Source of the DNA: Naegleria gruberi
Taxonomy: Eukaryota
Strand: one strand, 5' to 3'
NCBI GenBank assembly: GCA_000004985.1
Contig: GG739523.1
DNA: 1,161 bases
Positions within the stretch are counted from its first letter, which is position 1. Every line of letters starts with the position of its first letter. Positions 1-1,161 of this stretch are shown here, in pieces. A program made the translations under genes and the position numbers. Below the pieces are notes generated by a model. That model worked only from the letters and a program-made list of their open reading frames with translations. It did no database searches and was not told the DNA's origin.

Positions 1-516
1 TGCTCTCAGTTTTCCAAACTCACCTTCAGCAAGAAACTGGGCCAAGATGATTCTTTTTTCTTAAAAACAATTCAAATTCCAAAACTATAGATACTAGAAT
101 CTCACGCAACCTAAAATCAAATTCTAGAGATCAACTAGAACGATTTGATGTATTGTGTGTACTTCTACCTGGTCTCAATTTTATGTAGTAGTGCACAGCT
201 TTAATAACATGAACAAAATCCAGCCAAAAATTGCTTGCCAAAAAATCACAAAATATTTTATTGATAAATAAGTGAATAAATCTTGCAAAACACCTCAAAA
301 TCAATTTTCTCATTAAAAACAAATCGAAAAGATGAATAAAAAAGAGAGTATCATGAGATGGTCCATTGAGTTTTATTTGTCATTTTTTGTGTTCTTCCAC
401 AAAGTAAAAGACCTGATATTTGCAAAATATGTTTTTTATTGGACTTGTAAATTTTTTTTTGTGGCTTTTGAGAACAACAAAATACTGAACATACCCCCCA
501 CCTGATAATATCAATC

Positions 517-527
517 TCCAATTTCGA
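517..527 (+). repeat. Copy 1 of the short direct-repeat motif TCCAATTTC(G/A)A
   Basis: tccaatttcga at 517-527. The same 9-mer TCCAATTTC recurs at 625-633, and the variant TTCAATTTCAA at 754-764. Confidence 0.35.
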
Positions 528-624
528 ATAGTAGATGTGGGTGCTGAACAAGAGGAATTAATAGGATGATGAATCTTAAACATGTTATTCATACCTTAAT
601 ATTGTATCACCCTTCTCGTTAGAT

Positions 625-635
625 TCCAATTTCAA
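625..635 (+). repeat. Copy 2 of the short direct-repeat motif TCCAATTTC(G/A)A
   Basis: tccaatttcaa at 625-635, which shares an identical 9-mer with 517-525. Confidence 0.35.
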
Positions 636-753
636 TTAGATACCTTCCTCTCAACCAATTGAAACATTAAGAGCCAATTGTTGTTATCTTTTTTACTTCT
701 AATTGGAAAAAAAAACTGCGCGCTAAGTTTTTAGAAAGTGCGCTCTTCAAAAA

Positions 754-764
754 TTCAATTTCAA
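754..764 (+). repeat. Copy 3 (variant) of the TCCAATTTCAA motif, immediately upstream of the start codon
   Basis: ttcaatttcaa at 754-764. It shows 10/11 identity to copy 2 and overlaps the AAAAATTCA element. Confidence 0.3.
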
Positions 765-776
765 CCTCATAAAAAA

Positions 777-1161
777 ATGTCTCGATCATTCCACTATGAT
801 GATGCACTCTCTAATGGCTCGGATAACAATTTGAGGGATATCGAGTTGGCAGATGATAGTAAATATGTACTTCCTAAAAAAACAAAATGGTCTCGGAATA
901 AAAAGATTTGTGTGGGTAGTTTGCTAGGCTGTGGATTGTGTTGTTTAATTACATGTATTGTAATTGCTATTGCTATTGCAATTTATTTAGGAAGAAAGAA
1001 TGTAAATATTTATCCTACTCCTGAATATACAGCATCAGATGATTTTTTACGTTTTCTTGTTGTTGGAGATATGGGACGTGCAGATGATGGTCAAAAGGCT
1101 GTTGCTGCCAGTATGGGAAAGTTCTGTAAAACACAAAAATGTCATTTTGTAATTGGTATTG
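777..1161 (+). CDS. Partial CDS (5' complete, 3' truncated by the window end) for a membrane-anchored purple acid phosphatase / tartrate-resistant acid phosphatase (ACP5)-like metallophosphoesterase
   Basis: ATG at 777 in an A-rich context (cataaaaaaATGtct). An in-frame TAG lies at 732-734 with no ATG between it and 777. No ATG occurs on the + strand between 584 and 777. The frame stays open for 128 codons to the window end with a coding-like composition of about 35% GC, against about 28% upstream. Translation contains FLRFLVVGDMGRADDG (a GDxG metal-binding motif I without His, as in purple acid phosphatases). About 25 residues later it reaches HFVIGIG at the window edge, where motif II (GDNxY) is expected. 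Spacing and hydrophobic pattern match human ACP5 LRFVAVGDWGG...ADFILSLGDNFY from memory. The ORF track missed this because it runs off the window. Confidence 0.8.
   Translation, partial: MSRSFHYDDALSNGSDNNLRDIELADDSKYVLPKKTKWSRNKKICVGSLLGCGLCCLITCIVIAIAIAIYLGRKNVNIYPTPEYTASDDFLRFLVVGDMGRADDGQKAVAASMGKFCKTQKCHFVIGI
906..992 (+). other. Predicted single transmembrane / signal-anchor segment within the CDS (ICVGSLLGCGLCCLITCIVIAIAIAIYLG), with type II (N-in) topology predicted
   Basis: A 28-residue uninterrupted hydrophobic stretch with 5 Cys, translated from 906..992. It is preceded by the basic cluster KKTKWSRNKK (6 positive charges) and followed by only GRKN, so the positive-inside rule puts the N-terminus in the cytosol. 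There is no cleavable-signal-like small-residue motif right after it. The catalytic domain starts about 20 residues downstream. Confidence 0.65.
1053..1076 (+). other. Metallophosphoesterase motif I (FLVVGDMG) coding segment
   Basis: Beta-strand-like hydrophobic run followed by GDxG. Purple acid phosphatases use GDxG rather than the GDxHG of PPP phosphatases. Reading-frame positions were verified codon by codon. Confidence 0.7.

What the first reader, a model, noticed from the sequence alone, without database searches (positions are those of the whole stretch)
777..1161. Unannotated partial gene: an ACP5 / purple-acid-phosphatase-like metallophosphoesterase that the ORF track missed
The only convincing coding signal in the window is an open frame from the ATG at 777 to the window edge. 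It is absent from the supplied ORF list because it has no stop in the window. The translation carries the PAP-type motif I (VVGDMG) and the lead-in to motif II (HFVIGIG, with GDNxY expected next). Spacing and hydrophobic pattern mirror the N-terminus of mature mammalian TRAP/ACP5. The binuclear Fe-Fe/Fe-Zn centre ligands of this family start exactly at these two Asp-containing motifs.
Basis: partly seen in the sequence, partly recalled or inferred. Interest (0 to 1): 0.6.

Follow-up and report, generated by a model that had tools for sequence, protein, structure and literature searches.

The report
Partial Naegleria purple acid phosphatase gene
The open frame at the end of this Naegleria gruberi fragment is the real 5' part of a gene for a membrane-anchored relative of mammalian tartrate-resistant (purple) acid phosphatase; this is a correct but ordinary gene call.

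Summary
Confirmed. The window is a 1161-bp Naegleria gruberi scaffold. The frame from ATG 777 runs open to the edge (128 codons), with VVGDMG at 1059-1076 and HFVIGI at 1143-1160. The fragment alone misses the Pfam and PDB thresholds. An exhaustive HMMER scan with it still finds full-length Metallophos proteins (E down to 5e-19), and it aligns to the N. lovaniensis orthologue at 53% identity (E 8e-43). A contig from sequencing run ERR1078381 is identical over these 385 coding bases apart from one extra codon, and it extends the gene. Two GT..AG introns of 50 and 40 nt give a 376-aa protein carrying GDMG, GDNIY, GNHD, GHHH and GHVH. All seven PAP metal ligands are present. It matches human, pig and rat ACP5 at E ~1e-39 (33.5% identity to the human enzyme); the orthologue's model superposes on them at TM 0.84.

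- The gene is not unannotated. NCBI holds XP_002667980.1, "predicted protein, partial", 116 aa, with no function assigned.
- The first ~90 residues are not ACP5-like. They form a basic cytosolic tail, a Cys-rich transmembrane segment and a conserved linker, which suggests a type II anchor rather than a cleaved signal peptide. This layout recurs in Naegleria and Willaertia paralogues.

This is a new member of a known kind and of low interest.

The parts
777..1161 (+). First exon (5' part, cut by the scaffold end) of an ACP5-like purple acid phosphatase gene. It has 128 codons plus the first base of the Gly codon of motif II (GDNIY).
   Evidence: Open frame. Identical to NCBI XP_002667980.1 over aa 1-116. 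Identical to L001 486-873 except for one AAC indel. Homology shown.
777..905 (+). Predicted cytosolic N-terminal tail, aa 1-43. It is acidic and polar at first, then basic (KKTKWSRNKK) next to the membrane.
   Evidence: There are 6 K/R and 0 D/E in the 15 residues before the hydrophobic core, against 2 K/R and 1 D/E after it. The tail is present in Naegleria orthologues P0003 and P0004. The equivalent residues 1-25 of P0003 are disordered in the AF2 model.
906..992 (+). Cys-rich hydrophobic segment, aa 44-72 (ICVGSLLGCGLCCLITCIVIAIAIAIYLG). This is the predicted transmembrane signal-anchor.
   Evidence: Kyte-Doolittle 19-residue means reach 2.84. The segment is conserved in orthologues and paralogues. 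It is modelled as one long helix, residues 29-62 of P0003, with per-block pLDDT rising from 50 to 96 along it.
993..1046 (+). Juxtamembrane linker, aa 73-90 (RKNVNIYPTPEYTASDDF). It is a family-specific motif, roughly [VI][FY]P-x-P-x-Y-[TS]-x-S-x-D.
   Evidence: Conserved in the heterolobosean relatives P0003-P0006, P0123-P0128 and P0133. It is absent from mammalian ACP5, whose alignment starts at aa 90.
1059..1076 (+). Metallophosphoesterase motif I, VVGDMG. Asp98 (nt 1068-1070) is the first metal ligand, equivalent to Asp14 of pig PAP.
   Evidence: It aligns to D18 of chain 1war_A. The column is invariant in 121 homologues.
1143..1160 (+). HFVIGI, the beta-strand that leads into motif II. 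GDNIY follows immediately beyond the window end.
   Evidence: L001 continues ...HFVIGIGDNIYNYGV. It aligns to DFILSLGDNFY of human PAP.
505..776 (+). Conserved upstream region, presumed to be the promoter and 5' UTR. It contains an in-frame TAG at 732-734 and two GC-rich boxes (TGCGCGCTAA 717-726, GTGCGCTCTTC 738-748) in otherwise AT-rich DNA.
   Evidence: It aligns to L001 256-485 with 10 mismatches in 227 aligned bases plus indels. No similarity is found upstream of 505. Its function is inferred, not tested.

Best explanation
Window 777-1161 is the 5' end of a nuclear protein-coding gene of Naegleria gruberi, cut off by the end of a tiny scaffold. It encodes a low-molecular-weight, mammalian ACP5/TRAP-type purple acid phosphatase.

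Shown here:
- The frame is open and starts at ATG 777.
- Its product is homologous to full-length Metallophos proteins.
- The window contains the first metal-ligand motif, GDMG with Asp98.
- A contig identical over these 385 coding bases, apart from a 3-nt in-frame indel, continues the gene through two short introns to a 376-aa protein.
- That protein has all seven PAP metal ligands (Asp, Asp, Tyr, Asn, His, His, His) and is 33.5% identical to human ACP5.

Inferred:
- The catalytic domain binds a binuclear Fe(III)-M(II) centre and hydrolyses phosphomonoesters at acid pH, as ACP5 does.
- The protein does not use the cleaved signal peptide of ACP5. It is inserted as a type II membrane protein: a 43-residue basic-ended tail in the cytosol, a Cys-rich transmembrane helix at aa 44-72, then a conserved linker.
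- The enzyme therefore faces the lumen of the endo/phago-lysosomal system or the cell exterior.
- Its likely role is to release phosphate from ingested material, and possibly to contribute redox chemistry as macrophage TRAP does.
For: - Organism and existing model.
- Open frame and motifs.
- The window fragment alone by exhaustive HMMER gives 12 hits at E <= 1e-3. Seven of the nine non-self hits examined carry PF00149. The best is an N. gruberi paralogue, XP_002675161.1 (57% identity).
- The window fragment against the N. lovaniensis orthologue gives 53% identity and E 8e-43. That orthologue hits human PAP at 6.5e-35.
- Extension L001 gives exons 486-999, 1050-1346 and 1387-1706, with GT..AG introns of 50 and 40 nt. 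The resulting 376 aa carry GDMG, GDNIY, GNHD, GHHH and GHVH. Both junctions align without gaps to the orthologue.
- The full protein scores Pfam Metallophos 48.4 bits against a cut-off of 21.5, and PDB 1war 2.8e-39 over 90-374 against 9-304.
- The seven ligands map one to one onto 1war. Six are invariant in 121 homologues and the Tyr is kept in 118.
- The AF2 model of the orthologue has pLDDT 90.7. Its best PDB folds are pig, rat and human PAP at TM 0.82-0.87, normalised to the target.
- Hydropathy and charge asymmetry of the anchor. Its conservation.
- Coding against upstream divergence: 0/385 against 10/227.
Against: - The window itself holds only about 38 residues of the catalytic domain and one of the seven ligands. 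On its own it scores nothing against Pfam, NCBIfam or PDB sequences.
- The remaining motifs come from a different sample, ERR1078381, which differs upstream and by one codon. They do not come from the same genome, so an intact 3' part in strain NEG-M is inferred.
- No transcript, activity, metal content, topology or localisation data were available.
- The second-sphere histidine equivalent to pig His195 is Gly in the Naegleria clade, which could alter kinetics.
- No literature on a Naegleria PAP was found.
Confidence: 0.85

Rival explanations
1. The gene is real, but the hydrophobic segment acts as a long signal sequence, or is clipped after insertion. The mature enzyme would then be a soluble lysosomal or secreted PAP like mammalian ACP5, not membrane-anchored.
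For: Mammalian ACP5 and the bacterial homologues start with short N-terminal hydrophobic leaders. A conserved linker motif (IYPTPEY) sits just after the helix and could be a processing site.
Against: Forty-three residues, with a strongly basic end, precede a hydrophobic core of about 29 residues. This is much longer than the n- and h-regions of cleaved signal peptides (established knowledge). The tail and the helix are conserved across Naegleria and Willaertia relatives, which suggests they are retained and functional.
Confidence: 0.2
2. In strain NEG-M this copy is a truncated or degenerate gene fragment on an orphan scaffold, meaning a pseudogene, an uncollapsed haplotype or an assembly leftover. 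Only the related strain would have an intact gene.
For: The scaffold is only 1161 bp and ends inside the exon. No NEG-M protein covering the rest of this gene appeared among the best 120 hits of the full-length search. Sequence upstream of 505 is unrelated to the other contig.
Against: The 385 coding bases have no substitution and no frame disruption relative to an intact gene, while the adjacent non-coding DNA has diverged by about 4%. A short scaffold ending in a gene is a common assembly outcome.
Confidence: 0.1
3. The protein is a catalytically inactive PAP-fold membrane scaffold, like apicomplexan GAP50.
For: GAP50 (3tgh) is a significant sequence and fold match (E 6.8e-14; TM 0.77). It is also membrane-anchored, as reported in PMC2172186, which was listed but not read.
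Against: All seven metal ligands and His92 are retained. The match to active mammalian PAPs is stronger by 25 orders of magnitude.
Confidence: 0.04
4. The open frame is a chance ORF in AT-rich non-coding DNA.
For: A stop-free run of at least 128 codons occurs in 1.4% of simulated windows. Pfam finds nothing in the fragment.
Against: There is highly significant homology to orthologues and paralogues with a Metallophos domain. The frame continues into a complete PAP.
Confidence: 0.01

Closest known systems
Mammalian tartrate-resistant acid phosphatase type 5 (ACP5 / TRAP / uteroferrin; PDB 1war, 2bq8, 1ute, 1qhw)
   Same: Both have a single ~300-residue metallophosphoesterase domain. The five motifs come in the same order, all seven metal ligands and His92 are conserved, and identity to the human enzyme is 33.5% over the whole domain. 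ACP5 is the best fold match for the orthologue's model (TM 0.84).
   Different: ACP5 has a cleaved signal peptide. This protein has a 43-aa tail, a transmembrane anchor and a linker. The spacing between motifs I and II is six residues shorter. Motif IV is GHHH rather than GHYP. The His195 equivalent is Gly. The repression-loop region is not conserved in sequence.
Heterolobosean TM-anchored PAP paralogues (N. gruberi XP_002675161.1; N. lovaniensis C9374_001728; several Willaertia magna hypothetical proteins)
   Same: They share the architecture of tail, TM segment, FPNPxY linker and PAP domain. The window fragment is 53-57% identical to the two Naegleria proteins, the N. lovaniensis orthologue and the N. 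gruberi paralogue. The Willaertia relatives are 38-40% identical to it.
   Different: All are annotated only as predicted or hypothetical proteins and none has been characterised. The paralogues keep GHHP and a His at the His195-equivalent position, while the orthologue clade of this gene has GHHH and Gly.
Bacterial 'tartrate-resistant acid phosphatase type 5 family' metallophosphoesterases (Bacteroidota, Acidocella and others)
   Same: They are 31-39% identical over the catalytic domain and have the same ligands.
   Different: They have short N-terminal leaders, no long tail or TM anchor, and no introns.
Apicomplexan GAP50 (PDB 3tgh)
   Same: It has a PAP fold on a membrane-anchored protein.
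   Different: The match is much weaker (E 6.8e-14 against 2.8e-39). GAP50 is a structural anchor of the glideosome, whereas the metal ligands are intact here. In GAP50 the anchor is C-terminal (from my own knowledge, not tested here).
Plant high-molecular-weight PAPs (kidney bean, sweet potato; PDB 1kbp, 1xzw)
   Same: They have the same seven ligands and the same catalytic fold (PMC2267794).
   Different: The plant enzymes are ~55 kDa and carry an extra N-terminal domain. Their fold match is far weaker (TM ~0.5, 14% identity).

Membership tests
Calcineurin-like metallophosphoesterase superfamily (Pfam PF00149) | Score above the Pfam gathering threshold (21.5 bits) | tested here: met
   The window fragment alone gives no hit. 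The reconstructed 376-aa protein scores 48.4 bits, E 2e-12, covering profile positions 1-189 of 191. Seven of nine proteins found with the fragment alone also pass.
Calcineurin-like metallophosphoesterase superfamily (Pfam PF00149) | Motif I, GDxG/GDxH with the metal-binding Asp, inside the window | tested here: met
   GDMG is aa 97-100, with Asp98 at nt 1068-1070. It aligns to D18 of 1war and the column is invariant in 121 homologues.
Purple acid phosphatase (PAP) | Five motifs in order: GDxG, GDxxY, GNH[DE], xxxH (GHxx), GHxH | tested here: met
   GDMG98, GDNIY130, GNHD169, GHHH267 and GHVH302 in the spliced L001 product. Only the first lies in the window. The others come from a contig identical over the window's coding bases apart from a 3-nt in-frame indel.
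Purple acid phosphatase (PAP) | Seven invariant metal ligands (Asp, Asp, Tyr, Asn, His, His, His; PMC2267794), including the Tyr that gives the Fe(III) charge-transfer colour | tested here: met
   D99, D131, Y134, N170, H268, H303 and H305 (L001 numbering) align to D18, D56, Y59, N95, H190, H225 and H227 of 1war_A. They are conserved in the Naegleria orthologues.
Purple acid phosphatase (PAP) | Conserved second-sphere histidines (pig His92 and His195; PMC2267794) | tested here: inconclusive
   The His92 equivalent (H171) is present and invariant. The His195 equivalent aligns to Gly277 in this gene and its three closest orthologues. The column is variable and gappy across the 121 homologues: H 40, R 39, D 24.
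Low-molecular-weight (mammalian ACP5-type) PAP subgroup | Single ~35-kDa catalytic domain, without the N-terminal domain of plant PAPs, and closest by sequence and fold to ACP5 | tested here: met
   The alignment covers chain residues 9-304 of 310 in 1war at E 2.8e-39. In the fold search, ACP5 structures score TM 0.82-0.87 and plant PAPs about 0.35-0.48, normalised to the target.
Low-molecular-weight (mammalian ACP5-type) PAP subgroup | Cleavable N-terminal signal peptide giving a soluble lysosomal or secreted enzyme | tested here: not met
   A 43-aa tail precedes a hydrophobic core of about 29 residues, with positive charges on the N-side. This looks like a signal-anchor. Cleavage itself cannot be tested with these tools.
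Purple acid phosphatase (PAP) | Tartrate-resistant acid phosphatase activity, a binuclear Fe(III)-M(II) centre and purple colour | not testable with these tools
   This needs a recombinant enzyme, a pNPP assay at about pH 5 with and without tartrate, metal analysis and absorbance at about 510-560 nm.

The most novel reading that the evidence does not exclude
Heterolobosean amoebae (Naegleria, Willaertia) carry a small multigene family of ACP5-type purple acid phosphatases. These would be permanently tethered by an N-terminal, Cys-rich and possibly S-acylated type II anchor to the phagosomal or plasma membrane. In the Naegleria clade of this particular gene, the canonical second-sphere His195 has been lost and motif IV changed from GHHP to GHHH. 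That would imply a rearranged proton-donor or substrate-positioning arrangement and a membrane-proximal role, either ecto-phosphatase activity or phagosomal redox and killing. Such a role would differ from that of soluble TRAP.
Probability: 0.25. Interest if true: 0.3.

Novelty: new member of a known kind. Interest (0 to 1): 0.15.

Why it matters
The practical value is annotation. A 'predicted protein, partial' in the N. gruberi reference can now be named as the 5' end of an ACP5-type purple acid phosphatase, and its gene model corrected: the frame continues past 1124, and two short introns lie downstream.

It also shows that heterolobosean amoebae have a family of membrane-anchored TRAP-like enzymes. 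These are plausible components of the phago-lysosomal system, which is of interest for Naegleria feeding and, in N. fowleri, for pathogenicity. None of this is surprising to a specialist. PAPs are widespread, and acid phosphatases are expected in amoebal lysosomes (PMC9928731).

Tried and rejected
- **Fragment against curated libraries.** Pfam, NCBIfam and PDB-sequence searches with the 128-aa fragment alone gave nothing significant. Too little of the domain lies in the window.
- **Word-indexed homologue search with the fragment.** It found only itself. The exhaustive HMMER scan was needed.
- **Exact lookup of the NCBI partial protein.** It gave no contig. The cluster mate P0002 did.
- **His195-to-Gly as a unique feature.** Rejected as distinctive, because the position is variable among 121 homologues.
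- **Other features in the window.** I found no Rfam family, no tRNA and no notable repeats. Bacterial-type promoter and terminator matches were at or below shuffle expectation. Five upstream ORFs on both strands had no Pfam hits.
- **Neighbouring ORFs on L001 and L002.** They gave no Pfam hits.
- **Literature.** No paper combines Naegleria and purple acid phosphatase. A search for type II membrane PAPs in protozoa returned nothing directly relevant apart from GAP50.
- **Origin of the protist clade.** I did not attempt a phylogeny to decide between bacterial and eukaryotic ancestry.

Full report
**Observation.** The window is AT-rich: 32% GC overall, 31% upstream and 35% in the frame. Translation from ATG 777 gives 128 codons without a stop up to the last base. 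The mechanical ORF list omits this frame because ORFs that run off the source are not listed. The stop-free run starts after a TAG at 732-734, and ATG 777 is the first ATG in it. VVGDMG is aa 95-100 (nt 1059-1076) and HFVIGI is aa 123-128 (nt 1143-1160). Length alone is weak evidence: a run of at least 128 stop-free codons occurred in 72 of 5000 first-order Markov simulations of the window.

**Origin and existing annotation.** The fragment is 100% identical to NCBI XP_002667980.1 / EFC35236.1, 'predicted protein, partial [Naegleria gruberi]'. That entry is 116 aa on a contig of 1161 bp. The gene is therefore already modelled publicly, without a function. The model stops at nt 1124, 12 codons before the end of the open frame.

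**The fragment on its own.** Pfam, NCBIfam and PDB-sequence searches of the 128 aa are negative, because only about 38 residues of the catalytic domain are present. An exhaustive HMMER scan of 1.84 billion representatives finds 12 proteins at E <= 1e-3. Of the nine non-self hits examined, seven carry PF00149 Metallophos.
- The best is a complete N. gruberi paralogue, XP_002675161.1 (E 5e-19, 57% identity).
- Others are Willaertia magna hypothetical proteins.
- The fragment also aligns to the N-terminus of the N. lovaniensis orthologue C9374_001728 at 53% identity, pairwise E 8e-43.
- That orthologue matches human PAP 1war at 6.5e-35.

**Extension.** A cluster mate of the NCBI protein (P0002, 187 aa) lies on a 2700-bp Logan contig from run ERR1078381 (L001) and on its ENA twin (L002). 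Window 505-1161 aligns to L001 256-873. The 385 coding bases are identical except for one extra AAC codon (Asn) in L001. The 227 aligned upstream bases carry 10 mismatches and several indels, and nothing aligns upstream of 505 (Fisher P = 4e-5).

L001 continues the frame directly into GDNIY...LLGNH. There a GTAAGT...ATAG intron of 50 nt interrupts it, and a second intron (GTAGGT...ATAG, 40 nt) follows GHHH. The spliced 376-aa product contains GDMG, GDNIY, GNHD, GHHH and GHVH. Both junctions align without gaps to the N. lovaniensis protein. Another Naegleria-like sequence (P0004) shows a 13-residue in-frame read-through exactly at the second intron position.

**Family assignment.**
- The reconstructed protein passes Pfam Metallophos at 48.4 bits against a cut-off of 21.5.
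- It matches human, rat and pig purple acid phosphatase / TRAP structures at E 2.8e-39 to 7e-38, over residues 90-374 against 9-304 of 310. GAP50 is a distant seventh at 6.8e-14.
- Identity to human PAP is 33.5%.
- PAPs are defined by seven invariant metal ligands (PMC2267794). All seven map one to one: D99, D131, Y134, N170, H268, H303 and H305 align to D18, D56, Y59, N95, H190, H225 and H227 of 1war_A.
- Six of the seven ligand columns are invariant in a 121-sequence alignment, and the Tyr is kept in 118 sequences.
- An AlphaFold2 model of the orthologue (pLDDT 90.7, pTM 0.86) is closest to pig, rat and human PAP at TM 0.82-0.87, normalised to the target. GAP50 follows at 0.77, and plant PAPs are far weaker at about 0.35-0.48.
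- The gene therefore belongs to the low-molecular-weight, ACP5-type PAP subgroup.

Residues 1-90 have no ACP5 counterpart.
- Residues 44-72 (ICVGSLLGCGLCCLITCIVIAIAIAIYLG) give Kyte-Doolittle 19-residue means up to 2.84.
- Six K/R and no acidic residue lie in the 15 residues before this segment, against two K/R after it.
- By the positive-inside rule (established knowledge) this predicts an N-in, C-out type II signal-anchor rather than a cleaved signal peptide.
- The tail, the Cys-rich helix and a linker motif (IYPTPEYTASDD) are conserved in Naegleria orthologues. Apart from the long tail, they are also conserved in the N. gruberi paralogue and in Willaertia relatives.
- In the AF2 model the segment is one long helix, residues 29-62 of the orthologue, preceded by a disordered tail.

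**Mechanism.** What is shown: this is a gene, it is an ACP5-type PAP homologue, and its metal ligands are intact. What is inferred from the family: a binuclear Fe(III)-M(II) centre hydrolyses phosphomonoesters at acid pH. What is inferred from the anchor: the catalytic domain faces the lumen of endo/phago-lysosomal compartments or the cell surface. This fits the expectation that acid phosphatases belong to Naegleria's phago-lysosomal system (PMC9928731).

One deviation stands out. The pig His195 equivalent, a conserved second-sphere histidine according to PMC2267794, is Gly in this gene and its close orthologues, and motif IV reads GHHH instead of GHxP. That column is variable among the 121 homologues, so I do not treat the change as remarkable.

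**Surroundings.** The upstream 776 bases hold no Rfam family, no tRNA, no significant repeat and no ORF with a Pfam hit on either strand. Bacterial-type promoter and terminator scans are at or below background and are irrelevant for a eukaryote. Positions 505-776 are conserved with the other contig and presumably hold the promoter and 5' UTR.

**Limits.** Six of the seven ligands and all motifs after the first come from a near-identical contig of another sample, not from the NEG-M scaffold. No expression, activity, metal or localisation data could be obtained. No paper on a Naegleria PAP was found.

**Verdict.** The finding is a correct functional annotation of an already modelled partial gene. 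It is a new, uncharacterised member of a well-known enzyme family with an N-terminal membrane anchor shared by heterolobosean paralogues. Interest is low.

Noticed in passing
window 1124-1161: The public NCBI model (116 aa) ends at nt 1124, although the frame stays open to 1161 and continues in L001 into GDNIY. A donor-like T|GTAAAA at 1125-1131 may have been taken as a splice site by the gene caller, so the 3' end of the model looks wrong.
   Followed up: partly
window 825-830 (Asn run, aa 17-18) vs L001 534-542: There is a one-codon (AAC) length polymorphism in an Asn run of the cytosolic tail: SDNNL in the window and SDNNNL in L001. It is the only coding difference between the two sources.
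   Followed up: yes
window 1-504 and 582-627: Similarity to the other contig stops abruptly upstream of 505. A block of about 43-46 nt at window ~582-627 is absent from L001. Either an indel or mobile sequence has changed one lineage, or the intergenic DNA evolves very fast.
   Followed up: partly
window 717-726 and 738-748: Two GC-rich boxes (TGCGCGCTAA and GTGCGCTCTTC) lie 30-60 nt upstream of the ATG in otherwise AT-rich DNA. Both are conserved in L001 and are candidate core-promoter or 5'-UTR elements.
   Followed up: no
window 909-956 (Cys45, 52, 55, 56, 60): Five cysteines cluster in the cytosol-proximal half of the predicted TM helix. The CGLCCL[IV][TS]C pattern is conserved in the Naegleria orthologues, so these are possible S-acylation sites.
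   Followed up: no
L001 1334-1420 (beyond the window): In this gene and its three closest orthologues, motif IV is GHHH instead of GHxP, and the residue aligned to pig His195 is Gly. The N. gruberi paralogue and the Willaertia relatives keep GHHP and His.
   Followed up: partly
L001 1000-1049 and 1347-1386: The two introns are very short, at 50 and 40 nt, with GTAAGT / GTAGGT donors and ATAG acceptors. P0004 reads through a 39-nt in-frame intron at the second position, so that intron position is conserved across Naegleria species.
   Followed up: partly
L001 1793-2176 (-) and 2354-2689 (-); L002 3-299 (-): The neighbouring ORFs on the extended contigs have no Pfam match, so their identity is unknown. 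The first begins with a signal-peptide-like hydrophobic stretch.
   Followed up: partly
P0131 (283 aa, hit): A metagenomic protein contains two tandem copies of the module made of the TM anchor and the PAP N-terminus. It may be an assembly artefact or a duplicated locus in an unidentified eukaryote.
   Followed up: no
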